Shown: in pieces, positions 1 to 16,047 of the stretch | How positions within the stretch are numbered: position 1 is the first letter of the stretch | Layout: every line of letters begins with the position of its first letter | Origin: a virus | Direction: 5' to 3' (one strand) | UHGV virus genome: UHGV-0389216 | Length of the DNA stretch: 42,736 nt | The notes under the pieces: model-generated | Databases searched by the model: none | The model's input: the letters and a program-made list of their open reading frames with translations, nothing else | What the model was told of the DNA's origin: nothing | Translations under genes and position numbers: made by a program

Positions 1-1
1 T

Positions 2-169
2 AAGGCTGCCGTGGCAGGAATTAGTGGCAAAGTGACAGAGGTTAACCAGCAAAATACCTACCACATTTACGGTGGCGGAGATCCGCACGCTGTCGGTAAT
101 GAGGTTGCACGTCGGCAACAGTCTGCAAATGCTCAGGTCATGCGAAGTAATCAGGTGAGGGTGGGTTAG
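2..169 (+). CDS. 3' end of an upstream tail-module gene (partial, start lies outside window)
   Basis: Frame is open from the window edge to TAG at 167-169, and the stop overlaps the GTG start of the next ORF (TAGTG coupling). No start codon in window. Confidence 0.35.
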   Translation, partial: KAAVAGISGKVTEVNQQNTYHIYGGGDPHAVGNEVARRQQSANAQVMRSNQVRVG

Positions 170-756: not shown

Positions 757-1058
757 TGACAATTCAGGAAATTCCGCTGACAGCGGACAACCAGCAGTTC
801 AGCATCGTCCTGGGTGGTGTCACCTGGCGGATTAGCATCATATGGCGCGATCCTTACTGGATTATGGACCTGCAGAACGACAGAGGGGAGCCGGTAATCT
901 CCGGTATACCTCTCGTCACTGGCGCTGACCTGCTGGCGCAGTACGCCTGTATGGGACTTGGTTTTAAGCTGTTGGTGGTCTGCGATGACAACACACAGGA
1001 TTATCCCACGAAAACTGACCTGGGCGGGCGCAGTCATTTACTGGTATCAACGGAGTAA
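756..1058 (+). CDS. small tail/baseplate-module protein
   Basis: 100-aa ORF; ATG at 756 overlaps previous stop (TAATG); position in baseplate block. Confidence 0.4.
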   Translation: MTIQEIPLTADNQQFSIVLGGVTWRISIIWRDPYWIMDLQNDRGEPVISGIPLVTGADLLAQYACMGLGFKLLVVCDDNTQDYPTKTDLGGRSHLLVSTE

Positions 1059-1060
1059 GC

Positions 1061-2122
1061 ATGACACAGAACTGGATGAGACATTTCGAGCTGCAGCTTG
1101 TGGACGGGAACGGTCAGGGAATTGAGCTAAGTGATTTCAAAGTCACCTTTACGATCGACTGGTTCAACATCAGCAGCGCGTCCCGGGTAGGGACTATCAA
1201 AATTTATAACCTCTCGGCAGATACTGTGAACCGAATTACCGGGCAGGAGTTTTCGAAAGTGCGTCTGATTGCGGGTTACGATGGTATCGCGCCGGAGGTG
1301 TCGGCAAGCGATGTCGGGACCGTGCGGGAGGTTGATGCGGCGGACGTGGGCCAGAGTGATGGCCGCAACTACGGACTGATTTTCAGCGGTGAAATTCGCT
1401 ACTCGGTCACAGGAAAAGACAGCCCGGTTGATTCCTACGTCCTGATTCAGGCAGCCGATACAGATCTGGCTTTTGCCACCAGCATAACTTCGCAGACGCT
1501 GGCGGCCGGTTATACGGTCGCAGACGTGAATCGCGCGCTGATGAAAGACTTCGAGGCCAAAGGCGCGACTGAAGGTCTGACGCCTGAAATGCCTGCTACC
1601 GTTTTCCCCCGGGGCCGGGTGCTATTCGGCATGACACGTCATCTTATGGATAACGTGGCCGGACAATGTGGCGCAACATGGCAGTTCGTGGATGGTCAGC
1701 GCCAGATGGTGGCGAATAACGAATATGTTCACGACGCGATTGTGCTCAGCAGTGCCACGGGGCTTATCGGTATGCCACAGCAGACTATCGGCAACGGCGT
1801 AAACGTCCGCGCGCTGATTAACCCGAACATCCGGGTTAACGGGCTCATTCAGCTGGATCAGGCTTCAGTATTCCGCACCGCGCTGTCGAACAACGATATC
1901 GCGATGGCCGGCGGGCAGATCACCGACCAGAACACGGACGGAAATATCACGCTCAGCGGCACCACATCGCAGCCTGCCAGCATCGCAACGGATGGCGTTT
2001 ATATTGTGCGCGGGATTATGTACAGTGGCGATACAAGGGGCCAGGCGTGGTACATGGATATGATGTGCGAAGCGCGTGGCGCGGCGGATCTGTATACGCA
2101 ATCGGCTTTGCAAAGGGGATGA
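1061..2122 (+). CDS. baseplate hub-like tail protein (putative)
   Basis: 353-aa ORF, ATG 1061 with GGAG upstream; size and position upstream of spike/J-like genes. Assignment is positional. Confidence 0.45.
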   Translation: MTQNWMRHFELQLVDGNGQGIELSDFKVTFTIDWFNISSASRVGTIKIYNLSADTVNRITGQEFSKVRLIAGYDGIAPEVSASDVGTVREVDAADVGQSDGRNYGLIFSGEIRYSVTGKDSPVDSYVLIQAADTDLAFATSITSQTLAAGYTVADVNRALMKDFEAKGATEGLTPEMPATVFPRGRVLFGMTRHLMDNVAGQCGATWQFVDGQRQMVANNEYVHDAIVLSSATGLIGMPQQTIGNGVNVRALINPNIRVNGLIQLDQASVFRTALSNNDIAMAGGQITDQNTDGNITLSGTTSQPASIATDGVYIVRGIMYSGDTRGQAWYMDMMCEARGAADLYTQSALQRG

Positions 2123-2125
2123 GCA

Positions 2126-2467
2126 ATGAGGGGTATTATTTTTCTGTTAGCTGTCTTTTCTGCGTGCAGCGCGTGGGCGGATGGCTTCACGGTTAAATGC
2201 GGTGGCTACACTATGGTTGCAAACCAGGGCGAGTTATCGACAATCAACGGTGAAAGAGTTACCTCTCAAAAAATCACCGAACTGGGTACCAATGGTTTGA
2301 AAGTAGACATGGGGCTTATGCCTGCCAAAGACGGTAACAACTACGGCTTTGAATACATTCGTCGCCCTGGTACCGAAACGCGATTCCTGAATGTCCAACT
2401 GCTGCAGAACAGCATGGATGCGCCGAAAATCATCGGTTCCTTTCCATGCAAAAAGATTGTTGATTAA
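2126..2467 (+). CDS. small secreted protein / possible lipoprotein (moron)
   Basis: 113 aa; N-terminal signal peptide MRGIIFLLAVFSACSAW with lipobox-like FSAC; inserted between baseplate genes. Confidence 0.5.
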   Translation: MRGIIFLLAVFSACSAWADGFTVKCGGYTMVANQGELSTINGERVTSQKITELGTNGLKVDMGLMPAKDGNNYGFEYIRRPGTETRFLNVQLLQNSMDAPKIIGSFPCKKIVD

Positions 2468-2520
2468 TCACTCGTAATTATAATGTGATACTTCTACTTT
2501 CACGATAAGGAATTTGTCGC

Positions 2521-2760
2521 ATGTTCGGATTTGATAAATTAATAACTCCAAAAATCATCAACGTTCTGTATGGCATCACAATGTTACTTCTGGTTGTTGC
2601 CGCCATTATAACGTTTGTTAATGGGAAGGCTGCTGGCGCTTTAGTGCTTTTGTTATGTGCTGTATTTTGCCGAATATTCTTTGAGTGCATCATGGTTTCA
2701 TTTAAAAACAATGAGTATCTTCGCCGAATAGCTGAAGCGTTAGAAGCAAACAAGCAGTAA
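2521..2760 (+). CDS. small two-helix membrane protein (moron)
   Basis: 79 aa with two hydrophobic segments (ITMLLLVVAAIITFV; ALVLLLCAVFCRIFF); AT-rich upstream region; followed by terminator. Confidence 0.45.
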   Translation: MFGFDKLITPKIINVLYGITMLLLVVAAIITFVNGKAAGALVLLLCAVFCRIFFECIMVSFKNNEYLRRIAEALEANKQ

Positions 2761-2778
2761 TGAAACTTCAATAATGAA

Positions 2779-2800
2779 CCCGCCACCCGGCGGGTTTTTT
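2779..2800 (+). terminator. rho-independent terminator
   Basis: CCCGCC-ACCC-GGCGGG hairpin followed by TTTTTT. Confidence 0.7.
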
Positions 2801-2819
2801 GCTTTCTGGAGCCTACTAA

Positions 2820-3572
2820 ATGGCAGTATCTGACCAGACCCGCAGCGGCGACCTTGCTGAAACATTCAAATCTGAACGGGAAACAACAAAGAACCAGATC
2901 CGTGTCGCCTTGCCTGGCATTGTTCAGTCATTCGATCCCGACGCGGTGACGGCGGTTGTGCAGCCAGCTATCCGTTCGGTTGAAAAGGATAACGACGGTA
3001 ACCGCATTACCAAAAATTACCCGTTGCTGGTGGATGTGCCAGTGGTATTTCCGCGCGGCGGAGGCTGTACGTTGACTTTTCCGGTTAAAGCCGGGGATGA
3101 GTGTCTTGTCGTTTTTGCCGATCGTTGTATTGATTTCTGGTGGCAGAGCGGTGGGATACAGGAGCCGGTCGATGACAGAATGCATGATTTATCGGATGCG
3201 TTTTGTATTGTCGGTCCCCAGTCGCAGGCGAGGAAGATTAGCGGTATTAATACCAGTGCTACACAGTTGCGTAGTGACGACGGCAGCACCTATTTTGAGC
3301 TTAATCCTGATACCAGGAAAATTAAAATTGTCGCTCCGGGGGGCCTTGATGTGGTTGCCCCTCTGGCTGATTTTTCTGAGAAAGTAACCATTCATGGCCT
3401 GTTAACCTGGATGGGGGGCATGGTGGGGTCTGTTGTTTCTGGTGTAGCTTCAAAAATCACTGGTGCTGTTGAGTTTTTGGGTAGCGTGAAGGCTAACGGC
3501 AAGCCAATCGATGATACGCACACTCATGGCGGTGTTCAGCGCGGTGGAAGCAATACCGATGGGGTAAACTGA
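2820..3572 (+). CDS. baseplate assembly/spike protein (gpV-like, putative)
   Basis: 250-aa ORF, ATG 2820 after CTGGAG; position before small baseplate protein and J-like gene; Gly-rich C-terminus. Confidence 0.5.
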   Translation: MAVSDQTRSGDLAETFKSERETTKNQIRVALPGIVQSFDPDAVTAVVQPAIRSVEKDNDGNRITKNYPLLVDVPVVFPRGGGCTLTFPVKAGDECLVVFADRCIDFWWQSGGIQEPVDDRMHDLSDAFCIVGPQSQARKISGINTSATQLRSDDGSTYFELNPDTRKIKIVAPGGLDVVAPLADFSEKVTIHGLLTWMGGMVGSVVSGVASKITGAVEFLGSVKANGKPIDDTHTHGGVQRGGSNTDGVN

Positions 3573-3925
3573 TGCGATACAGACGTGAAGACGCCGATGG
3601 CGATTACACCTTTGGCAGCGGTGATGACACCTGGCTGATTAACTCACCGGAGGCCGTGGCGCAGGCGGTAAAAACGCGATTCGAATTGTGGTATGGGCAA
3701 TGGTTTCTCGACACCACCGAAGGGACTCCGTGGATCCAGTCCGTGCTCGGTAAGCAGAAGCCGGAAACCTACAACCTGGCGATCCGTAAGCGCATCCTCG
3801 AAACGCAGGGCGTTAAATCAATCCTCTCTTTCAATACGACGGTGGATACCACGACCCGACGTGTCATGTTTTCCGCTGAAATCGACACTCTTTATGGAAT
3901 AACGACTGTTACATCGGAGGCGTAA
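3572..3925 (+). CDS. small baseplate protein (gpW/gp25-like, putative)
   Basis: 117 aa; start overlaps previous stop (TGATG); conserved V-W-J-I type order. Confidence 0.45.
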   Translation: MRYRREDADGDYTFGSGDDTWLINSPEAVAQAVKTRFELWYGQWFLDTTEGTPWIQSVLGKQKPETYNLAIRKRILETQGVKSILSFNTTVDTTTRRVMFSAEIDTLYGITTVTSEA

Positions 3926-5124
3926 TGGCTCTGAACCTTGATTCTCTCGGTTTATCTGCAAAGGTAACCGCGGAGGGGATCAGTGCGCCTGATTATCAGA
4001 CGATACTCAGCACCCTGATTAGCTATTTTCAGCAGATTTATGGCAGTGATGCCTACCTCGAACCGGACAGCAAAGACGGCCAGATGGTGGCTCTGATGGC
4101 GCTGGCGATTCATGATGCCAATAATATGGCGATAACTGTCTACAACTGTTTTTCACCGGCAACCGGCTATGGGGCCGCACTGACCAGTAACGTGAAAATA
4201 AATGGTATTTCACGTAAAGGCGCGACGAATTCTACGGTTGATTTGCTTCTTACAGGAACTGCCGGAACAACCATCATTAATGGCAGCGTGAAAGACAGTA
4301 ATAATGTGATATGGCGTTTGCCTGTTTCAGTGGTGGTCGGCGTGGATGGTACAGTGATGGTGACCGCAACATGTTCCGTCAGTGGTGCAGTGGCGGCGCT
4401 GGCTGGAACAATCACTGAAATTAATACGCCAACCCGTGGCTGGGTTTCGGTAACTAATCCTGCTGCGGCTACTGTTGGCTCTCCGGCAGAAACTGATGCT
4501 GAGTTACGTATCCGCCAGTCGCAAAGTGTTGCGTTGCCATCAATAACCCCATTTGAAGCACTGGATGGTGCTGTTTCTAATGTTGTCGGTGTAACCCGCC
4601 ACAAACTCTATGAAAACGATACTGGTTCGGAGGACGGTAACGGGTTACCGCCACACTCTGTTGCTGTAATTGTGGATGGTGGTGATGTGACGGATATTGC
4701 TCAGGCTATCAGAGGGAATAAAGGCCAGGGGACAGCCACTCACGGTACAACATCCGTTACGGTTCCGGATAAATACGGCAATCCCCATGTAATCAAATTC
4801 TCGCGTTCCAGTGATGTGCCTGTTTATGCCCGGATTAAATTAAAAGTTTTTACGGGTTATACCTCACAGATAGGGCAGCAGATCCAGCAGGCTATTTCCG
4901 ACTATATCAATAGTCTGATGATTGGTGATTCGGTCCTTTTAAGTCGCATTTACTCACCGGCGAATCTTGGCGTGGTGAGTGGCGGGAATGCACGCTATTA
5001 CGATATTCAGGAACTGACGATTGGTAAATCCCCGGGGGCTTTGTCGTCATCAAACATTGATATCAGATACAACGAATCTGCGTCCTGTACCCCGGAAAAT
5101 ATCGTTATAACGGTGGAGTCATGA
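3925..5124 (+). CDS. baseplate J-like protein
   Basis: 399 aa; ATG 3925 after GGAGG, overlaps previous stop; size and order typical of baseplate J. Confidence 0.55.
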   Translation: MALNLDSLGLSAKVTAEGISAPDYQTILSTLISYFQQIYGSDAYLEPDSKDGQMVALMALAIHDANNMAITVYNCFSPATGYGAALTSNVKINGISRKGATNSTVDLLLTGTAGTTIINGSVKDSNNVIWRLPVSVVVGVDGTVMVTATCSVSGAVAALAGTITEINTPTRGWVSVTNPAAATVGSPAETDAELRIRQSQSVALPSITPFEALDGAVSNVVGVTRHKLYENDTGSEDGNGLPPHSVAVIVDGGDVTDIAQAIRGNKGQGTATHGTTSVTVPDKYGNPHVIKFSRSSDVPVYARIKLKVFTGYTSQIGQQIQQAISDYINSLMIGDSVLLSRIYSPANLGVVSGGNARYYDIQELTIGKSPGALSSSNIDIRYNESASCTPENIVITVES

Positions 5125-5801
5125 GCAAATACACCGAACTAATCACGAACTACCACGCCACCAAACCTAAATTTCTTGCACATGTTGATCTGATGACCCG
5201 GCCGCTTATTGATGTTGCGGCTGCCACCAGAGGGCTGATTACTGCATTTGATATTGACTCTGCGGTTGGTGTGCAACTTGACATTCTGGGATTGTGGATC
5301 GGACGTAGCCGTGTTGTCAGCCAGCCTATCTCAGGTGTCTATTTCAGCTGGGATACCGACGGGCTTGGATATGATCAGGGTGTATGGCAGGGACCATACG
5401 ATCCTGATTTAGGATACATGTATCTCAGCGATGAAACTTATCGTGTCATTCTTAAAGCGAAGATTGCGATTAATAACTGGGACGGACGGAATGATTCGCT
5501 TCCGGCAATTCTTGACGCGGCAACAGCAGGATCCGGGCTGCGAATGCAGATAGTCGATAACCAGGACATGACGATATCGGTCTGGGTCTTTCCTGATACT
5601 GATATTTCAGATGTATCGCGTGAGTTAATTGCGGCAATTAAACAGGGGTATCTCACAGTAAAAGCCGCCGGGGTATGGGCGGGTGGCATTGAAACACCTT
5701 CTGTGGAAACCCCATCGGAAGGTTCAAAATTTTTTGGTTTTGATATGGATAACGAATTCATCAGTGGTTTTGATGTAGGGGCATGGGGAGTATTACTCTG
5801 A
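5121..5801 (+). CDS. baseplate/tail protein I-like
   Basis: 226 aa; ATGA overlap with J-like gene; precedes tail fibre gene. Confidence 0.45.
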   Translation: MSKYTELITNYHATKPKFLAHVDLMTRPLIDVAAATRGLITAFDIDSAVGVQLDILGLWIGRSRVVSQPISGVYFSWDTDGLGYDQGVWQGPYDPDLGYMYLSDETYRVILKAKIAINNWDGRNDSLPAILDAATAGSGLRMQIVDNQDMTISVWVFPDTDISDVSRELIAAIKQGYLTVKAAGVWAGGIETPSVETPSEGSKFFGFDMDNEFISGFDVGAWGVLL

Positions 5802-6868
5802 TGGCAAAAAATGACTTTAAAGCATTCGCAACGGGTAAAAATGCCAATGTTATGCCGCAGGAGGAATGGGAAGCGTTGCCTGCGCTTTTATCCGGATTTA
5901 CAGCAGGGAAAGCATCCAGTGCGCAGGTGAACAAAGCCATTCGACAGGCCAGCTTTATTACGGCAGCGCTTGCACAGTACACAGCTAATAAAAGTGGGCT
6001 GGATGTGCTTGATGATGGTGACCTGAACGGGTTTATCTCCAAAATGGAAGCGGCTTTGGGGAAGGATTTCCAGGCGCTTGACGCCACGCTCACTGCACTG
6101 GCAGGCCTTGCCACTGCGGCAGACAAACTTCCGTATTTTACGGGGAATGATACAGCCAGCCTGACAACCCTGACTAACGTTGGACGGAATATTCTGGATA
6201 AAGCAAGCACACAGGCGGTTATTCAATATCTTGGTCTGAGCGATGCAAGTGGATACGTTGGACGCTGGCTGAATACCCGGGTTTTCACCTCATCAGGTAC
6301 GTACACCCCGACGCCAGGAACAAAACGGATCAGGGTCACAATAACGGGCGGCGGTGGCGGAGGGGGCGGCTGCAAGGCTACATCCAATAATGAAACGTTT
6401 TTCGGTGCTGGCGGTGGGGCCGGTGGAACAATAATTTCAATAATGACCCCGACACAGAATAGTTATCCAGTCACTATCGGCGCAGGTGGGGCCGGTGGTG
6501 TTAGTGCAACGTACGGCATCAATGGCGGTAATAGCTTATTCGCATCGTTAATTGCTCCTGGTGGCGCAGGCGGCGGAAAGTCAGGAGTCACAAACACAAA
6601 TGGTGGTAACGGAGGTGTGCCGAGTACTGGCAATATCAATATCATTGGTGGATGTGGAGGCGACGGTCAGTCCGGAAATATCGGCGTCAGCGGTGAAGGC
6701 GGAACATCGTACTGGGGAGGTGGTGGACGCGCAGGCGCTGGCGGTGGCGTTAGCGGTAAGGCATATGGTTCAGGCGGAGGTGGTGCATACGATGCTGGTT
6801 ATAGCGGAACCAGTATGACGGGCGGGAAAGGCGCTTCAGGGATTTGTATTATCGAGGAGTTTGCATAA
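5801..6868 (+). CDS. tail fibre protein with glycine-rich C-terminal domain
   Basis: ATG at 5801 overlaps previous stop (TGATG). N-terminus MAKNDFKAF...; C-terminal half is GGxGG-rich (TGGGGGGGGC...GAGGAGG...GGNGG). Confidence 0.6.
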   Translation: MAKNDFKAFATGKNANVMPQEEWEALPALLSGFTAGKASSAQVNKAIRQASFITAALAQYTANKSGLDVLDDGDLNGFISKMEAALGKDFQALDATLTALAGLATAADKLPYFTGNDTASLTTLTNVGRNILDKASTQAVIQYLGLSDASGYVGRWLNTRVFTSSGTYTPTPGTKRIRVTITGGGGGGGGCKATSNNETFFGAGGGAGGTIISIMTPTQNSYPVTIGAGGAGGVSATYGINGGNSLFASLIAPGGAGGGKSGVTNTNGGNGGVPSTGNINIIGGCGGDGQSGNIGVSGEGGTSYWGGGGRAGAGGGVSGKAYGSGGGGAYDAGYSGTSMTGGKGASGICIIEEFA

Positions 6869-7284
6869 TGAATGCGTCATATGCAGTTATTGAAAATGGG
6901 ATGGTTGTGAATGTCATTGTCTGGGATGGCGAGGCTGAATTCACAGTGCCGGATAATCAGCAGCTCATTGATATTTCTGATATCAGTGAGCATCCCGGAA
7001 TCGGCTGGGCGTATTCAGACGGGGGATTTACTGCGCCGCTCCCTCCGGAACGTTCTCATGATGAACTGGTAGCTGACGCTGAACAGAAAAAACAGTCGTT
7101 GGTAGACGCAGCAATGGTCAATATCAGCGTGATTCAGTTAAAGCTGCAGGCCGGGCGCAAACTGACGCAAGAAGAAACTACCCGACTTAACGTTGTGCTG
7201 GATTATATCGACGCTGTGACGGCAACAGATACCAGCACTGCACCGGATATTGAGTGGCCGGATGAACCGTGCTTCGCTGAATAA
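6868..7284 (+). CDS. tail fibre assembly protein (Tfa-like)
   Basis: 138 aa from ATG 6868 (TAATG overlap with fibre gene); C-terminal ...DIEWPDEP resembles Tfa chaperones; last gene of tail block. Confidence 0.5.
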   Translation: MNASYAVIENGMVVNVIVWDGEAEFTVPDNQQLIDISDISEHPGIGWAYSDGGFTAPLPPERSHDELVADAEQKKQSLVDAAMVNISVIQLKLQAGRKLTQEETTRLNVVLDYIDAVTATDTSTAPDIEWPDEPCFAE

Positions 7285-7539
7285 AATCTGTTGAGAAGTG
7301 GTTTAATTGTATCTCAATTCTTTTTGAGTAATAAAAGTAGGACAAAGCTGAGACAAATAAAGCCTCGCAATGGTTGCAGGCTTTGAACACTTCTATATTG
7401 AGTATGTGACGAGGTTTTGTTTATTTACATTCTATATATTGATCTCAATTTTTATGAATGTAGAGCATACGGATAAACCGCAGTGTGATTAGAGTCAAGG
7501 TAATAACTGTTGACTCTAATCATTGCAAAGTAACTTTAT

Positions 7540-8607
7540 TTATTGAAATTTATCTCGGATGAATTGCTGCGATGGTTTTTCAATGAATATATATGACATA
7601 TAGCTAATTGCCATTAATGTAAGCATGAATAAAATGAATACATTGGAGCTGTAAAAAAGATCGCGTCCATAGCCAATCCTGTCAGCTAAATAAACAGCAA
7701 TGATTTGCAAAGGAAAATGTAAAAGATAAGATGAATAACTGATATCACCCAACCATTCAATTTTCTTCCCAAAGTCGTTTCGCATTGCGCTAATTGATAC
7801 AAGGAAAAATATTATGGAGGTAAATCCAAATAAAATAATTGAGAATATATCTGCTACTTGCAGGATAAAAATAACTCCCCACGAGATTAATAGAAAAACA
7901 CAAGCGAAAATAAAAAATGATTTTGTGCCAATATTTTTTATGAACGCAATCGTAATTTTATAGGTCAGACCACCAATAAAGAAAGAGAATGCGCCGATCA
8001 TTATGGGATTGTTAATTTTGAAAAAGTAGTACGACAATGCAACTATTAAAATTGATATGAATGTTGTTTTTGATGTGAACTTGCATAATATAAAAAATAT
8101 CATGTACATAAGTACTTCAATCGACACGGACCATGTCGGTGCGTTGAAGGACCAACCTCGCTCAAATCCCCATGATTGAATCATCAATAAATTCAGAATG
8201 GCATGGTAAATGTCATTCATAGGATAAACAAAAAAATAATTATAACTTTTAAAGAAAATAATTTGTAATATTACCACGACAGCAAATGTAAATATATAAA
8301 GTGGATATAATCTACTGACACGGTTAACTATAAAAGTTTTTGCTGAGGTTTTATTGCTGTGTATATTGTCAGCGTATAGATAAAAAAATATGAATCCAGA
8401 AATCATAAAAAACAATTCGACAGCATATAAACCGTAATGATAAAAGACGGAAAAAAATTCATAAAAAGGTTGGCGGTTTATGATTATGTCAGATGCAGCA
8501 TTCTTTTTCATAAAAAAATGTTGCCAATGCCATAACACAACTGAAAGTGCGGCAAATCCTCTCAGAACATCTAGGGTATATATTCTTTTCCCAAAAACAT
8601 TCGTCAC
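7540..8607 (-). CDS. acyltransferase family 3 membrane protein, O-antigen acetylase-like
   Basis: 355 aa, GTG start. N-terminal LDVLRGFAALSVVLWHWQHFF motif and about 10 hydrophobic helices as in Oac/OafA-type acyltransferases; strongly AT-rich; opposite strand to tail genes. Confidence 0.75.
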   Translation of the reverse strand: MTNVFGKRIYTLDVLRGFAALSVVLWHWQHFFMKKNAASDIIINRQPFYEFFSVFYHYGLYAVELFFMISGFIFFYLYADNIHSNKTSAKTFIVNRVSRLYPLYIFTFAVVVILQIIFFKSYNYFFVYPMNDIYHAILNLLMIQSWGFERGWSFNAPTWSVSIEVLMYMIFFILCKFTSKTTFISILIVALSYYFFKINNPIMIGAFSFFIGGLTYKITIAFIKNIGTKSFFIFACVFLLISWGVIFILQVADIFSIILFGFTSIIFFLVSISAMRNDFGKKIEWLGDISYSSYLLHFPLQIIAVYLADRIGYGRDLFYSSNVFILFMLTLMAISYMSYIFIEKPSQQFIRDKFQ

Positions 8608-8849
8608 AACGAACCTCTTTTAATAAAGTCAAGTGATAATGAAAAGTAAATATTGTAAACGAAAAAACACTGGACTGGAACATATATCTCTGCCTGTAAT
8701 TTAACCAAGATAGTTTTACTAACATAATCATAATTCGTTTATATGAACACATCCCGTTTGCAAGGCATCCATTGTTATGACATTGACGGTAGGTTGCAGC
8801 TTTATATCCGGCTTTTTGCAGCCGCAAAGCTGCTAGCCCCTATGTAATT

Positions 8850-10260
8850 CGCTGACTCACACCTCATTTCCTGTGCGGGCTTTAAGCTCAAAGAATTATT
8901 CAGGTTTAGCGAGTCACGGTCTTACCTGTCGTTGTCATCACTCTGGCCGCCAGAGCAACCTTTCAGTATTCACCCTTTCATTAAAAGTTAATATTTATCG
9001 GTATCAGCGATTAATATGGTCTGATACTGACATGATTCTTGTCGTATTTACTTCCATGAGCTGCTATCGCCCATACTGTTCGTGCCAGTTTGTTTGCCAT
9101 GGCGACGATTGCCACGCTGGCTGGACGACGTTTTTTCAGTTCGGTTATCCACGGACCAGGTTCTTTGGTCAGTAATGCTGCCGCCCTTGCGCCATGAATA
9201 AACAAGGCTCGCAGATATGTATCACCACGTTTGCTTATCCCCAGCAGGCGGATTTTCCCTCCTGAGCCAGTCTGTTTGGGCACCAGACCAACATAAGCCG
9301 CGAACTCTCGCCCTGATTTAAACGCTGATGCTTCCCCCATGGTGGCCACCGCTGCCGTCGCAATAAGTGGCCCAACGCCGGGAATATCCAGCAACCGCTT
9401 ACAGGTTTCATTCTGTTTCGCCACGCTGGTAAGCTGTTTTTCAATATCCTCTATCAGTGAGTCCAGCTCATTCAGCCGGTTGTACTGGTTTTCCAGCACA
9501 GTAATGAGATACGGTGGCAGTCTCTCTTTCATCCGCTCCAGTGCTTCAGGGAACTCCCGCTCCATTGCTGCCCGACCTTTGTGAATTGTTTCACCAAATT
9601 CCAGGAGCGTGCCGTGCAGGGAGTTAATCTGCATGGTGCGGAACTTCACCAGTTGTCTGCGGGAACGATGCAGAACCAGTACCGACTGCTGTTCTTCTGT
9701 TTTGACAGCGATTTCCTTGCCGGGCTGTTGTACTGCCATCCAGATAGCCCGGGCATCCATAACATCGTTTTTATTACCCATGACGAACGCTTTAACGAAG
9801 CGGGCCTGCAACAACCGGACTTTATGACCCAGCTTTGTCAGTTCACGTGCCCAGTGCTGCGAGCCTCCACAGGCCTCCATACCAATCAGGCAGGGTTCCC
9901 GATTACAGAAGAACATCAGAAAATCCTGACGACGCAACTGCTTATCAATCACTTCACCTGTGTGCTCGTCGATGAAGTGAACCTGAATGACATGTTTTGC
10001 GATATCAACGCCAACCGGTGTATATTTCATTTGTGGAGTCTCCAGTCTGAAGGAGCTTTATGCATCCCGTATTGGGCACTATGATGCCGGAAATCTGCGA
10101 GGCTCCACACCTTCCTGTATTTCCCTTCATCTATCACTGTGCACCTTACTTAATGGGGGGGATGTGTTCATTACATTTCATGTATACCAGATGAAAGTGC
10201 ATGTTCTATGAAACAGGGTTTTGCCTGGAGTTTGAAGGGTTTTAAAGATTATACCTGTTT
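8850..10260 (-). mobile_element. IS110-family insertion sequence (boundaries approximate)
   Basis: Contains a single IS110-type transposase ORF with about 160 bp 3' and about 230 bp 5' non-coding flank. Exact ends not determinable by eye. Confidence 0.5.
9011..10030 (-). CDS. IS110-family transposase (DEDD-type)
   Basis: 339 aa starting MKYTPVGVDIAKHVIQVHFIDEHTGEV with ...GMEACGG...NDVMDARA..., the N-terminal DEDD fold pattern of IS110/IS1111 transposases; C-terminal domain follows. Confidence 0.85.
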   Translation of the reverse strand: MKYTPVGVDIAKHVIQVHFIDEHTGEVIDKQLRRQDFLMFFCNREPCLIGMEACGGSQHWARELTKLGHKVRLLQARFVKAFVMGNKNDVMDARAIWMAVQQPGKEIAVKTEEQQSVLVLHRSRRQLVKFRTMQINSLHGTLLEFGETIHKGRAAMEREFPEALERMKERLPPYLITVLENQYNRLNELDSLIEDIEKQLTSVAKQNETCKRLLDIPGVGPLIATAAVATMGEASAFKSGREFAAYVGLVPKQTGSGGKIRLLGISKRGDTYLRALFIHGARAAALLTKEPGPWITELKKRRPASVAIVAMANKLARTVWAIAAHGSKYDKNHVSIRPY

Positions 10261-10628: not shown

Positions 10629-11276
10629 CTATGAAGCTAATTTGTTTAATTTCATTTGTAGCGACTTTACTTCTTGGTCGATAATGTTGAATCCCTTATT
10701 GACTGCATCTCTTAGCTCTGCATCAATATTTTTTATCCCTTGAGCATAATCTACCATTACATCTATTTTTGCATCATGTAATCTTTTATACATGGTTTTA
10801 TCTTTGTTATTGTCAGCCATACCAATAAGGATTTTTTCATAATCCTCAATGAGTTTGTTGTTTCCTTTAAATGATTGTATTAATGACCGTGAATATGTGT
10901 AGATATTAATTATTGAGTCTCTGGCAGAATCATTTAGTTTTGCAATGACATTCGCATTTTGCTCATAGAATGTGAAATTATCATCCCCTACAGGGAAAGT
11001 GAGAATTAACATCTGTCCGGGTTTGATATTATCAATGTGTGTTTTCATCCTTTTATTATATAAATTGATTAGGGTGAAAACTTCTCCCTTAACACCTTTT
11101 AATACTGAAAGTTGCAATTCAAGGGATTCTCTTTCTGTCTCTACTTTAGACAGCTTAGCTTGTTGGGTAACTCCTTTTAGGGTAAACCATCCGCCAATAA
11201 GAGTACCAACTAGAGCAGTGAGGGAGGAGGATAACCATCCAGGAATGCTATTTAAAAGATTACTAAATTCACTCAT
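10629..11276 (-). CDS. hypothetical membrane-anchored coiled-coil protein
   Basis: 215 aa; N-terminal hydrophobic helix (LSSSLTALVGTLIGGWFTL) then Lys/Glu-rich helical region; AT-rich; no family recognised. Confidence 0.45.
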   Translation of the reverse strand: MSEFSNLLNSIPGWLSSSLTALVGTLIGGWFTLKGVTQQAKLSKVETERESLELQLSVLKGVKGEVFTLINLYNKRMKTHIDNIKPGQMLILTFPVGDDNFTFYEQNANVIAKLNDSARDSIINIYTYSRSLIQSFKGNNKLIEDYEKILIGMADNNKDKTMYKRLHDAKIDVMVDYAQGIKNIDAELRDAVNKGFNIIDQEVKSLQMKLNKLAS

Positions 11277-11334
11277 TATAAGTACTCGCTAATATTGAAC
11301 GATATATATATCAAATTATTATGAAACTCGTCAG

Positions 11335-11613
11335 CTACTGGAGAAGGCTACCTGAACTTCGAGCTATTCCTGCATCCATATAGTTGATGGTCTTCTGGAG
11401 CTCTTCGATTAGGGCAACAGCTTTTGCTCGAGAAATGCATATTAGTTGATCCGGAAATTCTTGTAAGGGCCAGTTTGGTATACAGGCCATGTTATCAGTG
11501 AAGGATGCAGACAAGTAAACTTCATTGGTAACCAGAGAATAGCTTACCTCAAAATTGGTGAGTTCCGGCAAACTGCTAACGTTTGACTCTTTTCTGCGCA
11601 TAATATTATCCAT
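11335..11613 (-). CDS. hypothetical protein (start uncertain)
   Basis: Open frame runs to 11778, but the first 55 codons translate the tandem 12-mer repeat (LLNVLLNVLL). ATG at 11613 (MDNIMRRK...) is proposed as start; no clear SD. Confidence 0.35.
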   Translation of the reverse strand: MDNIMRRKESNVSSLPELTNFEVSYSLVTNEVYLSASFTDNMACIPNWPLQEFPDQLICISRAKAVALIEELQKTINYMDAGIARSSGSLLQ

Positions 11614-11750
11614 GACTGTAATTATATACAGGTGATGGTCTTCAATTTCGAAGAGGGAGTCAAGGGGAGTCTCAAATGAACCGTTATAGAAAGGGGGGGA
11701 TCTTTGTGTTGCTGAACTTATGCAAAATTTTTCGCACCATAAATCCAACA

Positions 11751-11782
11751 ACACATTCAATAACACATTCAATAACACATTA
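11751..11782. repeat. tandem direct repeat, 12-bp unit ACACATTCAATA (2.7 copies)
   Basis: ACACATTCAATA ACACATTCAATA ACACATTA read directly, in the AT-rich region upstream of int. Confidence 0.7.
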
Positions 11783-12081
11783 CCGTATCATCATGAAAAT
11801 AAATATATTTTTATTTAATTTCACACATATCACAATTAATACAGCGTTTAGTAATTAGTAAAGACATTTCAATGGATTACCGTTAAATCATTTTAAAATC
11901 AGTAAGTTGTATCGAGTTTGTATGCTTTACTGTCATTAACTTACTGTATGTTGATCCAGTGTATTTAACCTTGATAAACTCAGTCCAGCAACACAAAACC
12001 GCAACACATTGCATTTTGTCCCGTAGAAAAGACTTGTATGTGTGAGCTTGTTTTCTGCGCCTACGCAGATAAGGATTGAGA

Positions 12082-13479
12082 ATGCCGCGCACTGTAACAC
12101 ATAATCCGGATAGCCCCAATAATGACGATGTTTTAGCCGCATCTGAAAAATGGGACGCCTGTAAACCCCCCTATACCAGCGCACACATGAAAATCTGTGT
12201 TGCTGCCGCCAAAATCATCCTCGCTGCTTCCGGCGTGGCTCGCCGTTCCAAATACGAAAAAGAGAACTATCTCCGTATCGATTTCAGCAAAGCCGGTAAG
12301 GTTACATTTTACGCCGAGTTTCCAAAAAAGATGGGCCTCAAGGGTAAAAAGCTCGGCGAGTGGCCGGAGCTCGCTATCCAGCTGGCGCGCGAAAAAGCGC
12401 TAGGTATGGCTGACTGTGGCCTGCGGGCAGAGTCCGTACATGCAGCGCTGGAAATGTACCGGGATGACCTCAAAGCCAAAGTCGCCCGGCAGAAGCTGAG
12501 CCCGGACAGTTTCACAACCTACGGGGTGCGTATCGACCGGATTAAAGCAACGTTCGGCGAGCGCGAGGTGTTCAGCGACGTAACATACAATCGGCTGGTG
12601 GAAGTGCTGGACGAGTGGATCGCTACTCGCTCGAACAATAACGCCCTGGAGTTGTTTGCCGAGCTCCGTCGGTTCTGGAAGTTCTGCGCACCTACTCTTT
12701 GCAACGGCCGCAATGTTGCCGCCAGTCTGCCAGATGATTATGTTTCCTCCCGCGTACAGAAACCTACCCCCACACGGCTTTTTACCGATATTGAATCAAT
12801 CGCCCGACTCTGGCTCAATGTTGCTGCCTGCACCTCTGTACACCAGAAGAATGCTGTTCGCTTCATGATCATCACTGGCGTTCGTCCGATTAATGTCCAT
12901 AACCTGCGCTGGGACTACGTTCACGAGGAGGCTGGTGAAATTGTTTATCCGGAAGGGGTTATCGGCATGCGAGGGGCTATGAAAACACAAAAGGCTTTCC
13001 GCCTGCCGATAACGCCTGAGATCCGGCGGATTATCGACGAGCAGAAAGCCTGGCGTGATTCAGTTCCTGAGTGCAACAGGGATTATGTATTTTTGCAGCC
13101 ACGTGATCCAATGCAGCCATTTTCAAAACGATCACTGGATAAGCTGGTGAAAACATACAGCCCGGACGGGGCTGTAAAAGGAATAAAACATGATGGGACT
13201 GTTAAAGGGAAAGACGGTGCATTTAATACGATGTGCCGTAAATTCCTTAAGAGCAATGTTATTGCCTTGATGAAGGAAAGAGGCTATTCCCGATCAGACC
13301 GAAGGGAAATCAGCCTCCTTTGCCTTCACCACTCCAGTAAGTCAGATGACCCGATGGCAGAACATTACGACTTTTCTGATGAGATTTTACAGGAAGAGAT
13401 TGCGTTAAAGCGCGAAGCTTTCGAGGCTCACGAGCGGAGCATACTTGCGCAGGTGGCATTGCTACGGCGGCGAGGTTAA
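12082..13479 (+). CDS. int: tyrosine-type site-specific integrase
   Basis: ATG 12082 preceded by AAGGA. Contains ...MIITGVRPINVHNLRW... and C-terminal ...LCLHHSSKSD...AEHY consistent with R/H/Y catalytic boxes; adjacent convergent AlpA/Xis-like gene. Confidence 0.7.
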   Translation: MPRTVTHNPDSPNNDDVLAASEKWDACKPPYTSAHMKICVAAAKIILAASGVARRSKYEKENYLRIDFSKAGKVTFYAEFPKKMGLKGKKLGEWPELAIQLAREKALGMADCGLRAESVHAALEMYRDDLKAKVARQKLSPDSFTTYGVRIDRIKATFGEREVFSDVTYNRLVEVLDEWIATRSNNNALELFAELRRFWKFCAPTLCNGRNVAASLPDDYVSSRVQKPTPTRLFTDIESIARLWLNVAACTSVHQKNAVRFMIITGVRPINVHNLRWDYVHEEAGEIVYPEGVIGMRGAMKTQKAFRLPITPEIRRIIDEQKAWRDSVPECNRDYVFLQPRDPMQPFSKRSLDKLVKTYSPDGAVKGIKHDGTVKGKDGAFNTMCRKFLKSNVIALMKERGYSRSDRREISLLCLHHSSKSDDPMAEHYDFSDEILQEEIALKREAFEAHERSILAQVALLRRRG

Positions 13480-13676
13480 TACCGGCTGCGACACTTTTGA
13501 ATAAAAGCATCGACATTGCGGCGCTCATAACGAACTACTTTTGCACTGAAACGAATTGGTGCCAGGATAGCCCGATGACGATGCTTAATATTCCACTCAC
13601 ATAGCGTTTTCTGTGTAATACCTAACTTTTGGCATACTTCATCCGGGGTGAGTAAATCGTCGGGTTTCTCGCTCAT
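13476..13676 (-). CDS. AlpA/Xis-family small DNA-binding protein (putative excisionase)
   Basis: 66 aa; ...LLTPDEVCQKLGITQKTLCEW... is a MerR/AlpA-like helix-turn-helix; last gene of early-left operon, abutting int. Confidence 0.65.
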   Translation of the reverse strand: MSEKPDDLLTPDEVCQKLGITQKTLCEWNIKHRHRAILAPIRFSAKVVRYERRNVDAFIQKCRSRY

Positions 13677-15067
13677 GCTATACCTCTCTTTTTCATGGCA
13701 TCGAGCAGGATGTCCTGCACTGTTCGTTTTGAGTTGCGCCGTTCCATCACCATTTCGTCCATAGTGTCGGCGGCGATAATGTGGTGAATGAACACCGGGC
13801 GGTTGTGTCCGGCCTGTATCTGCCTGGTGGGGCCGATACGTTCAATAATTTGCTGATATTGCTCCAGGTCCCACCAGTGTGAGAAAAATACCAGTATATT
13901 TCCGCCGTCCTGCATGTTCAGACCGTGGCCCGCGCTGGCTGGGTGTGCAAAGAGAACAGGAATCTTTCCGGAATTCCAGTCGCGCAGTGTCTGTGGATCC
14001 TGGTCGAGGTGACGACCGCGAGGGAATGCTTTAAGCAAGCGTTCAAGATCGTGTTTCCAGTGATAAGCAACCAGCACAGGTGCGCCAGCTGCTTCGGTCA
14101 GTATGCTGTCCAGCGCCTGCAGTTTGGTGTCATGCAGTTCTGACCAACTTCCGGTGTCGTCTGTGTATACTGCGCCACTGGCGATTTGCAGACACTTCAG
14201 TGTCTTTGCCGCGGCGTTCGGTGCTTCGATGCCTTCGCCATTCAGCTCGAGGAACATTTCCTTTTCCATTTCACGATACTGCTGACGGGCCTTCGGCGGC
14301 ATATCCACGCGGATTACGTTATGGATGGGGTCTTTGATATCGAACCAGTCGGCCGCATCCAGCGATAGGGTCACATCGGCTAACGCTCGCTGTATTTCAC
14401 CCTGTGAGTGAGCAAACGGCTCCAGTTTGGTCCAGCTCTGCCCCGGAAACTGTATCGAGTTGAACCAGCGTGAGGTAAACGCGCCGTAAGTGCGTCCGAG
14501 ACGTTGCCCCTGGTCCACAAACCACGCTTGTCCCCACAAATCTACCAGGCCGTTCGGTGCTGGCGTACCAGTGAGATTTATCCAGCGCCGGACATACTTA
14601 TGCGCCACTTTGCCCAGCGCCGCCGCGCGCTTACCACCACCTCGCAGCCGGAAGGATTTTAGCCGGGTGCTTTCATCTGGAATGACAGTACCGAACGGCC
14701 ATCGTTCTCCCAATTCCTCAACCAGCCAGACAAGGTTATCGTAGTTGATGGTGAACACGCTCGCGTTGCTGTTCGCCAGCGCTGCAGAGCGCGCTTTGGC
14801 GTTACCAACAATAGGCTGCACCTCGATATTGCGCAGATGCCCCCATTTTAGCGCTTCATCCGGCCATGTGCTTGCTGCAACGCGTAGCGGCGCGAGGACC
14901 AGTGCGGGGCGTGTTTCTGCCCCTGCCATAAAGAGATTTTCCAGCGCAGTGAGCGTTGCCACGGTTTTACCCATTCCCATACCTGCCCAGATGTTGCCGC
15001 GCAGGGTTTCGGTTTCGTGGTTGATAATGAGATCTTGGTAGGGGCGAGGTATATATTTTGGGGGCAT
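13673..15067 (-). CDS. SNF2/DEAD-like superfamily 2 helicase
   Basis: 464 aa; Walker A GMGMGKT, Walker B/DEAD-like VIPDESTRLK, C-terminal helicase motifs; coupled to downstream gene. Confidence 0.8.
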   Translation of the reverse strand: MPPKYIPRPYQDLIINHETETLRGNIWAGMGMGKTVATLTALENLFMAGAETRPALVLAPLRVAASTWPDEALKWGHLRNIEVQPIVGNAKARSAALANSNASVFTINYDNLVWLVEELGERWPFGTVIPDESTRLKSFRLRGGGKRAAALGKVAHKYVRRWINLTGTPAPNGLVDLWGQAWFVDQGQRLGRTYGAFTSRWFNSIQFPGQSWTKLEPFAHSQGEIQRALADVTLSLDAADWFDIKDPIHNVIRVDMPPKARQQYREMEKEMFLELNGEGIEAPNAAAKTLKCLQIASGAVYTDDTGSWSELHDTKLQALDSILTEAAGAPVLVAYHWKHDLERLLKAFPRGRHLDQDPQTLRDWNSGKIPVLFAHPASAGHGLNMQDGGNILVFFSHWWDLEQYQQIIERIGPTRQIQAGHNRPVFIHHIIAADTMDEMVMERRNSKRTVQDILLDAMKKRGIA

Positions 15068-15081
15068 ATAATATGGCTCCT

Positions 15082-15117
15082 AAACAACAAAAGGCCAATT
15101 TAGGCCTTTTGTTGTTT
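15082..15117. terminator. long perfect hairpin, probable terminator for the 305-aa accessory gene
   Basis: AAACAACAAAAGGCC-AATTTA-GGCCTTTTGTTGTTT, 15-bp stem with U-rich 3' arm on either strand. Confidence 0.5.
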
Positions 15118-15129
15118 TAAAAATGTTAT

Positions 15130-16047
15130 TTATAATAGTGCTGTTACTATTGCATCTTTAAAAATATTTTCTTCTTCATTTATTAAAGGTGATGACAGAT
15201 GAATAATTACTTCTTTTCCTGTCAATACTATTTGCTCGACTTGAAATCCTGCGTTGTGTAGTCTTTGGCGTAACTTTTCTAGTGCTGATTTTGATATACT
15301 AAATCCTTCACTCCTTATAGTATAACTGGCAACTCCATTTTTAATAATATCTACAGAGTTGTCAATTTCCTGCTGCGAGTAATTTTTCGGTGAGTCGAAA
15401 AATCTGGATTTTGTCGTTGCTGTTGCCCTAAGAGATATCAATAATGATTTGATATCTTTAATCTCAGATGCCAGATACTCAGTTTCTGATACTTCTTTCT
15501 GGTCTAGTTGTGCAACTTTGAAAGTGCCAAAATGTTTGAGGAATGTTGTGTATTCAGGATCAGTTACTGACTTTAAATATGTTTCTTTTATCTTGCTCGC
15601 AAGTCTTTCTTTGAATAAATTGATTGATTGGTATCTTAAATCCGAAGGGTACTCTAAATGTTCAATTGATGAAATGTCAAAGCTATAAGGAGTGCGCTCG
15701 TCCTTAATAATTACGGTCGGTTTGTCAAATGCGAGACGCATTCCTAATTCAAACATTACATTAGCGTTTCGAGCACTTATATCGCAAACAACTATGGGGT
15801 TTTCATAAAGATTTTGAACAATTCGTTTTTGTATTACTGCAACATCATCATCTGAACTTACCAAATTTGCCTTGAATCCGGCATCATTTGATGCTTCACA
15901 AATAATGTCATGAACATTTCTCCAATGTCCAGTGGGATAACCTTCTATGTCCGCAATTGGCATAATAATGCCGCATATATGAGGTGGCATATTTTTGTTG
16001 TCTTTTACATCATCTTGGTTTATTTCTTTCGTTTGTTGCTTAGCCAT
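15130..16047 (-). CDS. accessory protein with N-terminal Rossmann-like TIR/NDT-like domain and unknown C-terminal domain
   Basis: 305 aa. Residues about 20-140 show alternating hydrophobic strand/helix pattern with ...PIVVCDISARNANVMFELGMRLAFDKPTVII..., the NV-x-x-E-x-G motif class seen in nucleoside 2-deoxyribosyltransferase-like and TIR-like folds; AT-rich; hairpin terminator downstream. Confidence 0.45.
   Translation of the reverse strand: MAKQQTKEINQDDVKDNKNMPPHICGIIMPIADIEGYPTGHWRNVHDIICEASNDAGFKANLVSSDDDVAVIQKRIVQNLYENPIVVCDISARNANVMFELGMRLAFDKPTVIIKDERTPYSFDISSIEHLEYPSDLRYQSINLFKERLASKIKETYLKSVTDPEYTTFLKHFGTFKVAQLDQKEVSETEYLASEIKDIKSLLISLRATATTKSRFFDSPKNYSQQEIDNSVDIIKNGVASYTIRSEGFSISKSALEKLRQRLHNAGFQVEQIVLTGKEVIIHLSSPLINEEENIFKDAIVTALL

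What the first reader, a model, noticed from the sequence alone, without database searches (positions are those of the whole stretch)
7487..7521. Perfect 12-bp inverted repeat between convergent tail-fibre and acyltransferase genes
GATTAGAGTCAA-N11-TTGACTCTAATC lies just downstream of the acyltransferase stop, in the gap between convergent transcription units. It may be a bidirectional terminator or a protein-binding site marking the cargo boundary.
Basis: seen in the sequence. Interest (0 to 1): 0.3.

Follow-up and report, generated by a model that had tools for sequence, protein, structure and literature searches.

The report
Conserved stem-loop after prophage acyltransferase gene
The palindrome is real and selectively maintained, but it is most likely an ordinary RNA stem-loop in the 3' untranslated tail of a phage-borne acyltransferase cargo gene. 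It is neither a bidirectional terminator nor the cargo boundary, both of which fit a second hairpin about 125 bases further on.

Summary
The inverted repeat exists and is slightly longer than reported: perfect 13-bp arms at 7486-7498 and 7510-7522 with an 11-nt loop, 17 nt past the stop of an Acyl_transf_3 gene (7540..8607, minus). It is far beyond chance. It has no U-tract on either strand, a 31% GC stem and an 11-nt loop, so it fails the definition of an intrinsic or bidirectional terminator. It is also not the cargo boundary. The low-GC acyltransferase cassette runs on to about 7342-7382 and ends just past a second, GC-richer hairpin (7359-7384) followed by a T-run on the acyltransferase strand; that hairpin is the likely terminator. 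The palindrome travels with the cassette through at least four phage backbones in E. coli, Citrobacter and an unidentified host. Its stem is kept while the loop and flanks vary: one compensatory A:T to G:C change and one change that leaves a U.G pair on the acyltransferase strand only. The more distant orthologues that have downstream intergenic space carry unrelated long hairpins at the same position. Best reading (about 45%): a U-less stem-loop in the acyltransferase 3' UTR that blocks 3' exonucleases. This is an ordinary feature of low interest.

The parts
7486..7522 (-). Hairpin 1, the finding: 13-bp perfect arms 7486-7498 and 7510-7522 with loop 7499-7509. Read as an RNA stem-loop in the acyltransferase 3' UTR.
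   Evidence: existence and significance. (stem conserved, loop variable, compensatory change, independent RNAalifold prediction).
7468..7482 (-). Mini-hairpin directly 3' of hairpin 1 on the acyltransferase strand (UGCGG-UUUAU-CCGUA).
   Evidence: Predicted. Kept with changes in the L034 type (UGCGAA-UUA-UUCGCA: G.U to G-C, G-C to A-U) and in Citrobacter. L024 has a hairpin in a shifted register.
7350..7384 (-). Hairpin 2 (AAAGCCTCGCAA-TGG-TTGCAGGCTTT, 7359-7384) followed on the minus strand by TTTATTTGTCTC. Likely intrinsic terminator of the acyltransferase transcript and the true cargo-boundary element.
   Evidence: The Citrobacter version is canonical (GCCUUGC-N8-GCAAGGC-UUUUU). Cassette homology ends just outside it. 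The simple scanner did not call it in the three loci where it was run (window, L002, L023). That looks like a limit of the scanner's rules (a bulged stem here, greedy G.T extension into the T-run in L023), but this was not tested.
7540..8607 (-). Acyl_transf_3 (AT3, OafA/Oac-like) membrane acyltransferase, 355 aa, about 30% GC.
   Evidence: Pfam PF01757, E = 4e-23. Composition. Annotated 'acyltransferase family protein' in E. coli genomes.
7342..8742 (-). Minimal mobile cargo cassette: promoter region, acyltransferase, 3' UTR with hairpin 1, and terminator hairpin 2.
   Evidence: Shared at 80-99% identity between SEN34-like, Mu-like-tail and other prophage backbones and species. Absent from the closest sequenced phages.
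6844..7284 (+). Tail-fibre assembly gene (Caudo_TAP), convergent with the cassette.
8743..10176 (-). ISEc66-like IS110-family insertion sequence upstream of the acyltransferase. It is a neighbour, not part of the hairpin element.

Best explanation
Hairpin 1 is a cis-acting RNA stem-loop in the 3' untranslated region of the acyltransferase cargo (moron) transcript. The gene is transcribed leftwards on the minus strand. Transcription passes the stop codon (7540), hairpin 1 (7522 to 7486) and an AU-rich spacer of about 100 nt. It ends at the GC-richer hairpin 2 with its U-run (7384 to 7350), or by Rho in the spacer.

The long perfect stem, which has no U-tract, then acts as a barrier to 3'-to-5' exonucleases (PNPase, RNase II) once the distal UTR has been cut or trimmed. 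That would fix a stable 3' end about 20-55 nt after the stop and prolong the life of the mRNA in the lysogen.

Shown: the hairpin exists, is non-random, belongs to the cassette, and has a conserved stem with a free loop. Inferred: that it acts as RNA, on the acyltransferase strand, as an exonuclease barrier.
For: (1) Very stable fold on the acyltransferase strand: -20.2 kcal/mol, z = -6.5.

(2) The hairpin always accompanies the acyltransferase. All 11 viral contigs and all genuine metagenome hits with the palindrome carry the gene, in at least four prophage backbones and in Citrobacter.

(3) Across 8 distinct variants, 4 of 22 stem-core columns vary, against 9 of 11 loop columns and 38 of 65 loop-plus-flank columns (Fisher p = 0.0012).

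(4) Three of the four variable stem-core columns keep pairing; the fourth is a lost loop-closing pair in L024. Citrobacter has A:U to G:C changed on both sides. L024 has U-A to U.G, which pairs only on the acyltransferase strand. The L034 type loses the two outer pairs but gains an inner one, keeping 12 bp.

(5) RNAalifold on the whole 3' UTR independently returns hairpin 1 and hairpin 2 as the conserved helices.

(6) The two orthologues of 56-58% identity examined have unrelated sequences but perfect 11- to 13-bp AT-rich hairpins with 12- to 15-nt loops 9-21 nt after their stops. They are Kluyvera L026 and P0008 L045.

(7) In the L034/PD7 type, hairpin 2 has decayed (two mismatches) while hairpin 1 stays perfect.

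(8) There is a described class that fits. Stable stem-loops without U-rich tails sit at the steady-state 3' ends of E. coli Rho-dependent transcripts and protect them from PNPase and RNase II, with mild C-over-G enrichment downstream (PMC6061677). Downstream C:G here is 19:13, and 26:13 in Citrobacter, against 172:162 in the coding sequence.
Against: There are no expression or 3'-end data.

Covariation is thin. Only about four independent lineages exist; 8 of 14 stem pairs never vary and only 1 pair has changes on both sides. Shuffles that reached the observed value: 2/500 for the covariation score, 3/500 for cells changed on both sides, 14/500 for percentage of cells paired and 27/500 for pairs changed on both sides. 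Related sequences can inflate these.

One peripheral change in the L034 type (G to A) is wobble-compatible only on the opposite strand.

The spacer is A/U-rich rather than C-rich, so it is not a convincing rut site.

More distant orthologues (46-51% identity) have no hairpin because the convergent gene abuts the stop.

Conserved arms with a free spacer would also fit a dimeric DNA-binding site.
Confidence: 0.45

Rival explanations
1. Hairpin 1 is itself a weak, non-canonical transcription terminator or pause hairpin for the acyltransferase gene. It would be the first of two tandem terminators, with hairpin 2 as the back-up.
For: It sits 17 nt after the stop, where a gene's terminator is expected, and has a strong stem. 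The analogous hairpin of the P0008 orthologue is followed by AUUUUG. Cargo genes of this kind classically carry their own terminator (own knowledge of the 'moron' concept).
Against: The 10 nt after the stem on the minus strand (CACACUGCGG) contain a single U. The loop is 11 nt and the stem 31% GC. The consensus scan does not call it. The U-tract is a defining requirement of intrinsic termination in E. coli (PMC6061677). A canonical hairpin plus U-run exists about 125 nt downstream.
Confidence: 0.15
2. The hairpin has no function of its own. It would be a relic, for example a former terminator from the low-GC donor of the gene, that hitch-hikes with a recently spread cassette.
For: Total divergence among the available copies is small (80-99% DNA identity) and 8 of 14 pairs never vary. 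Conservation could therefore partly reflect recent common ancestry.
Against: The loop and immediate flanks of the same element have diverged heavily (82% and 41-59% variable columns) while the stem core has not (18%; p = 0.0012). Three of the four stem-core columns that changed preserve pairing. Distant orthologues keep a hairpin of different sequence at the same place.
Confidence: 0.2
3. The palindrome acts as double-stranded DNA: a binding site for a dimeric host or phage protein, as an operator, a roadblock to convergent transcription, or a nucleoid-protein site.
For: It has perfect dyad symmetry with conserved half-sites and a variable 11-bp spacer. The Citrobacter change is symmetric in both half-sites.
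Against: There is a single copy, and the half-site occurs no more often in the window than chance predicts (5 hits against 2.9 expected). It lies at a gene's 3' end, not at a promoter. It moves with a cassette that encodes no DNA-binding protein, across unrelated phage backbones and hosts. L024 breaks the DNA symmetry but keeps RNA pairing as U.G. Orthologues of 56-58% identity keep hairpin geometry but not sequence. By eye, the flanking and overlapping sequence gave no convincing CRP or LexA match conserved across the variants; this was visual inspection, with no scoring matrix run.
Confidence: 0.1
4. It is a bidirectional intrinsic terminator that insulates the tail operon and the acyltransferase gene from each other.
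For: Its position between convergent units and its symmetric stem.
Against: There is no A-tract/U-tract pair flanking the stem on either strand. Compare the textbook example in the same window at 15082-15117, AAACAACAAAAGGCC-N6-GGCCTTTTGTTGTTT. The scan does not call it.
Confidence: 0.05

Closest known systems
U-less protective stem-loops at the steady-state 3' ends of Rho-dependent or processed E. coli transcripts (Dar and Sorek 2018, PMC6061677)
   Same: An energetically stable stem-loop downstream of a coding sequence, with no U-rich tail and no upstream A-tract, and a mild C-over-G bias downstream. The proposed role is protection against PNPase and RNase II.
   Different: Neither the 3' end nor Rho dependence has been mapped here. 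The loop (11 nt) and stem (13 bp perfect, AT-rich) look long and AT-rich to me for a terminator-like hairpin; this was not compared with the paper's distributions. A canonical terminator follows about 125 nt downstream, so trimming would have to start from there or from an internal cleavage.
Intrinsic (Rho-independent) terminator, including the bidirectional type
   Same: A hairpin just after a stop codon, between convergent genes.
   Different: No U-tract on either strand, an AT-rich stem and a large loop. Hairpin 2 (7350-7384) fits this class on the acyltransferase strand much better.
3' 'positive retroregulator' and REP-type mRNA-stabilising hairpins (B. thuringiensis cry 3' inverted repeat; REP in malE-malF). 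Own knowledge.
   Same: A 3' inverted repeat that would work like them, by stalling 3' exonucleases to raise mRNA half-life.
   Different: No sequence relationship. It is single-copy per genome and always linked to this gene, unlike REP, which is dispersed. No Rfam family matches.
Phage 'moron' cargo cassettes: promoter, gene and terminator, with atypical GC, between the tail-fibre genes and attP. Own knowledge of the HK97/HK022 concept.
   Same: The surrounding unit fits. It has 30% GC against about 50% for the phage, is absent from the closest phages, has its own terminator-like hairpin 2, and lies next to the prophage end.
   Different: The finding is an extra internal 3' UTR hairpin, not the terminator that delimits the cassette.

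Membership tests
Intrinsic terminator | G+C-rich stem of about 5-14 bp with a short (3-8 nt) loop | tested here: not met
   13-bp stem with only 4 G:C pairs; 11-nt loop. Not called by the scan.
Intrinsic terminator | U-rich tract immediately 3' of the stem | tested here: not met
   Minus strand: CACACUGCGGUUUAU. Plus strand: AUUGCAAAGUAACUU. The same holds in the Citrobacter, L024 and L034 variants.
Bidirectional terminator | A-tract 5' and T-tract 3' of a symmetric stem, so that both strands read hairpin plus U-run | tested here: not met
   Neither flank is A- or T-rich next to the stem. Contrast 15082-15117 in the same window.
U-less protective 3' stem-loop (Dar and Sorek class) | Stable stem-loop not followed by uridines | tested here: met
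   -20.2 kcal/mol, z = -6.5 on the gene's strand; no U-tract. Class definition from PMC6061677.
U-less protective 3' stem-loop (Dar and Sorek class) | Mild C-over-G enrichment (rut-like) downstream | tested here: inconclusive
   C:G is 19:13 in the window, 26:13 in Citrobacter and 70:50 in L024, against 172:162 in the coding sequence. The region is mainly A/U-rich.
U-less protective 3' stem-loop (Dar and Sorek class) | Precise steady-state RNA 3' end just after the stem, sensitive to PNPase/RNase II and to Rho inhibition | not testable with these tools
   Needs Term-seq or 3' RACE in a lysogen, with and without bicyclomycin, and in pnp/rnb mutants.
Structured RNA element (general) | Base pairs maintained by compensatory or wobble substitutions across homologues | tested here: inconclusive
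   One pair changed on both sides, two pairs with single-side wobble changes, and 91% of helix-1 cells paired. Shuffles reaching the observed value: 2/500 for covariation score, 27/500 for pairs changed on both sides. Only 8 variants from about 4 lineages. RNAalifold predicts the helix.
Palindromic operator or DNA-binding site | Half-site recurs, lies at or near a promoter, and a cognate regulator is encoded in the same mobile unit | tested here: not met
   Half-site frequency is not above chance. It lies at a 3' end. The cassette encodes only an AT3 membrane protein.
REP/BIME or other dispersed palindromic repeats | Many dispersed copies per genome with a family consensus | tested here: not met
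   In 5,426 E. coli genomes the full interval occurs only with the cassette, in 48 genomes and usually once each. No Rfam hit.
Recombination hairpin at a cassette boundary (attC-like) | Lies exactly at the junction where cassette homology ends | tested here: not met
   Homology with other backbones continues 105-145 nt past the hairpin, to 7342 or 7380-7382.
Phage moron cassette (surrounding unit) | Atypical composition, presence/absence among related phages, own terminator, location near the tail-fibre genes and attP | tested here: met
   GC 0.29-0.36 against about 0.5. The closest phages lack it. Hairpin 2 plus T-run. Adjacent to prophage ends.

The most novel reading that the evidence does not exclude
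Hairpin 1, with its adjoining mini-hairpin, is not just an exonuclease barrier. It would be a dedicated recognition structure that belongs to the acyltransferase cassette. One version: a site for a host RNA-binding protein or RNase III that couples O-antigen acylation to the phage's lysogenic or lytic state, through convergent late transcription. Another version: a single-strand hairpin used to move the cassette between unrelated phage backbones.
Probability: 0.05. Interest if true: 0.6.

Novelty: new member of a known kind. Interest (0 to 1): 0.15.

Why it matters
Very little beyond annotation. The result corrects where the cargo boundary and the probable terminator lie: hairpin 2 at 7350-7384, not the palindrome. 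It also shows that a lysogenic-conversion acyltransferase cassette carries a selectively maintained 3' UTR stem-loop as it moves between phage backbones and enterobacterial species. If the stabiliser role is confirmed, it would be one more example of U-less 3' stem-loops setting mRNA ends. It would also be a handy, portable 3' stabiliser element.

Tried and rejected
- **Rfam.** A search of 6800-9200 at E <= 1 found nothing.
- **Terminator scan.** It calls neither hairpin in the window, L002 or L023. Hairpin 2 was judged by eye and by folding. The scanner probably misses it because of a bulged stem in the window and greedy G.T extension into the T-run in L023; this was not tested.
- **Small ORFs.** The 40-codon plus-strand ORF 7370..7492 starts in the hairpin 2 loop, where the DS26-1 type has a 2-nt insertion. 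The 23-codon minus-strand ORF starting at ATG 7523 has no start codon in Citrobacter or the L034 type. Both are rejected as genes.
- **Promoter reading of the TTGACT arms.** No acceptable -10 at 16-18 nt on either strand (inspection). The promoter-like hit at 7458-7429 is split by insertions in Citrobacter and L034.
- **CRP or LexA-like sites at or overlapping the palindrome.** I saw no convincing match on reading the sequences, and the CRP-like TGTGA just left of the stem is not conserved across variants. No matrix scan was run.
- **Same palindrome at other junctions.** Pattern scans of the viral and metagenome collections gave only copies linked to the acyltransferase. The few unrelated matches in other organisms (L029, L031-L033, L036, L037, L039, L040, L042) look like chance hits.
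- **Genome-contig scan with the protein.** It returned only distant (21-47% identity) relatives from Planctomycetes and other phyla, of no use for the hairpin.
- **Divergent phage orthologues (36-51% identity).** There is no homologous hairpin. In several the convergent gene abuts the stop.
- **Literature.** A search on prophage acyltransferase cargo genes gave nothing on 3' elements.

Full report
**Observation**

The sequence GATTAGAGTCAA-N11-TTGACTCTAATC is at 7487-7521 as reported. One further pair (T7486/A7522) makes it a perfect 13-bp inverted repeat with an 11-nt loop.

- It is not a chance feature. No dinucleotide shuffle of the window contains the pattern, even with 3 mismatches.
- Perfect inverted repeats with arms of 12 or more average 0.03 per shuffled window, against 2 observed. 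Only 1 of 500 shuffles of the AT-rich cassette alone has one.
- As RNA it folds at -22.6 kcal/mol (plus strand) or -20.2 kcal/mol (minus strand), z about -7 and -6.5.

A Gly_rich_2 tail fibre (5783..6868, +) and a Caudo_TAP tail-fibre assembly gene (6844..7284, +) converge on an Acyl_transf_3 gene (7540..8607, -). The repeat starts 17 nt after that gene's stop.

**What the surroundings are**

The window is a temperate phage genome. It is 96-97% identical over bases 1-6034 to the induced E. coli phages vB_EcoM-606R2/611R5, and related to Salmonella phage SEN34. The integrase is at 12076..13479.

Bases about 7285-8742 are a low-GC island (0.29-0.36 against about 0.5). No record in the phage collection holds it. 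It is present in 48-58 of 5,426 complete E. coli genomes.

There it sits in different prophage backbones:
- a SEN34-like one in IAI1;
- Mu-like-tail prophages in DS26-1 and PD7.

Orthologues occur in a Citrobacter freundii Mu-like-tail prophage (84% amino-acid identity) and in a prophage of a different type from an unidentified host (78%). All lie at the prophage end, next to the tail-fibre genes. This is a classic cargo ('moron') cassette.

Relative to IAI1, the window also carries a 1,434-bp ISEc66-like IS110-family element at 8743-10176, about 135 nt upstream of the acyltransferase start.

**Where the cargo boundary and the terminator are**

Homology of the cassette in foreign backbones does not stop at the palindrome. 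It continues to window 7342 in Citrobacter and to 7380-7382 in the PD7/L034 type.

Just inside that boundary lies a second hairpin, AAAGCCTCGCAA-TGG-TTGCAGGCTTT (7359-7384). On the acyltransferase strand it is followed by UUUAUUUGUCUC. In Citrobacter the same element is a textbook terminator, GCCUUGC-N8-GCAAGGC-UUUUU (-19.7 kcal/mol). In the DS26-1 type it forms a 9-bp stem (-20.0 kcal/mol).

The simple scanner did not call it in the three loci where it was run. This is probably because of a bulge in the window's stem and greedy G.T extension into the T-run in L023, but I did not test that.

So the acyltransferase has a 3' UTR of about 185 nt. It begins with hairpin 1 (the finding) and ends with hairpin 2, the likely terminator and the true boundary element.

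**Is hairpin 1 a terminator?**

No, not by the defining features. The 10 nt after the stem hold one U on the minus strand (CACACUGCGG) and three non-contiguous U's on the plus strand (AUUGCAAAGU). The stem has 4 G:C pairs of 13 and the loop is 11 nt. The window contains a genuine bidirectional terminator for comparison at 15082-15117.

**Is it conserved, and how?**

Exact and degenerate pattern scans of the viral and metagenome collections found the palindrome only next to this acyltransferase. The remaining hits are unrelated palindromes in other organisms.

I collected eight distinct variants of the stop-to-mini-hairpin segment:
- 4 of 22 stem-core columns vary, against 9 of 11 loop columns and 38 of 65 loop-plus-flank columns (Fisher p = 0.0012).
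- Three of the four variable stem-core columns preserve pairing; the fourth is a lost loop-closing pair in L024. Citrobacter has A:U to G:C changed on both sides. L024 has an A-to-G change giving U.G on the acyltransferase strand; it would be C.A on the other strand.
- The L034/PD7 type loses the two outer pairs but gains an inner one, keeping 12 perfect pairs.

A 5-bp mini-hairpin directly 3' of the stem also changes in a pairing-preserving way in the L034 type. RNAalifold on the complete 3' UTR alignment independently predicts hairpin 1 and hairpin 2 as the conserved helices.

In the L034/PD7 type, hairpin 2 has two mismatches while hairpin 1 stays perfect. The two orthologues of 56-58% identity examined (Kluyvera, chromosomal; P0008, in a prophage with contractile-tail sheath and tube genes) have unrelated sequences. 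Both nevertheless carry perfect 11- and 13-bp AT-rich hairpins with 12- to 15-nt loops 9-21 nt after their stops. Orthologues of 36-51% identity have none; in several the convergent gene abuts the stop.

The covariation statistics are modest because only about four independent lineages exist. One pair has changes on both sides. Shuffles reaching the observed value were 2/500 for covariation score, 3/500 for cells changed on both sides, 14/500 for percentage of cells paired and 27/500 for pairs changed on both sides.

**Mechanism**

The element belongs to the cassette, not to any phage backbone, and the cassette encodes only a membrane enzyme. A cis role on the acyltransferase transcript is therefore the most economical reading.

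The closest described class is the stable, U-less stem-loop found at the steady-state 3' ends of Rho-dependent E. coli transcripts. Those protect the transcripts from PNPase and RNase II and are followed by a mild C-over-G bias (PMC6061677). The bias here is mild: 19:13 in the window and 26:13 in Citrobacter, against 172:162 in the coding sequence. The spacer is mainly A/U-rich, which would also suit RNase E cleavage.

I therefore propose that the transcript ends at hairpin 2, or by Rho in the spacer, is trimmed back, and is stabilised by hairpin 1. Confidence is about 0.45.

Rivals:
- a weak, non-canonical first terminator (0.15);
- a functionless relic (0.2; the contrast between stem and loop argues against it);
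- a double-stranded DNA protein-binding site (0.1; single copy, half-site not enriched, wrong location, no cognate regulator, DNA symmetry broken in L024);

**Other readings rejected**

See 'tried and rejected' for the small ORFs, promoter, CRP/LexA, REP and attC-like readings.

**Verdict**

It is an ordinary 3' UTR stem-loop of a mobile acyltransferase cassette, a new member of a known kind and of low interest.

Noticed in passing
window 8743-10176: An ISEc66-like IS110-family insertion sequence (transposase 9011..10030, minus; 98.8% identical to annotated ISEc66). Subterminal inverted repeats are ATGAACACATCC/GGATGTGTTCAT. Relative to the IAI1 prophage it is inserted about 135 nt upstream of the acyltransferase start, so it may affect the gene's promoter.
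   Followed up: partly
window 7321-7384 (hairpin 2 and flank); L003 3001-3067: This 64-nt stretch, which includes the terminator-like hairpin 2, is 85-90% identical to a site between ompT and envY in E. coli K-12. That site lies about 80 nt inside the DLP12 prophage end, next to the tRNA-Arg fragment (pauD/attR). It is present in about 1,190 of 5,426 E. coli genomes (1,193 matched the 261-nt query, about 48 of them through the whole cassette). It appears to be a recurrent terminator module at prophage cargo ends.
   Followed up: partly
window 15082-15117: A textbook bidirectional terminator, AAACAACAAAAGGCC-N6-GGCCTTTTGTTGTTT. It lies between the convergent SNF2-type helicase gene (13673..15067, minus) and ORF 15130..16047.
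   Followed up: no
window 16777-17538 (minus): A 253-aa protein with a CAP12/Pycsar-effector TIR domain (PF10137, E = 3e-31). It is a candidate phage-borne defence or counter-defence gene.
   Followed up: no
window 10629-11778 (minus): Two further low-GC cargo ORFs (215 aa and 147 aa) with no Pfam match lie between the IS and the probable attP (about 11857). The 215-aa ORF is also annotated in the IAI1 prophage end, and homology to IAI1 runs on to 11857.
   Followed up: no
L026 about 5081-5114; L045 about 3483-3523: Acyltransferase orthologues of 56-58% identity carry unrelated but similarly built hairpins just after their stop codons: perfect 11- to 13-bp AT-rich stems with 12- to 15-nt loops. 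This hints that the architecture, not the sequence, is what is kept.
   Followed up: partly
E. coli AH02 and CT01 records NZ_CP081704.1 and NZ_CP081794.1: The cassette also occurs on records of about 43.7 kb filed as plasmids, in strains whose chromosomes carry it as well. These are probably excised circular phage genomes.
   Followed up: no
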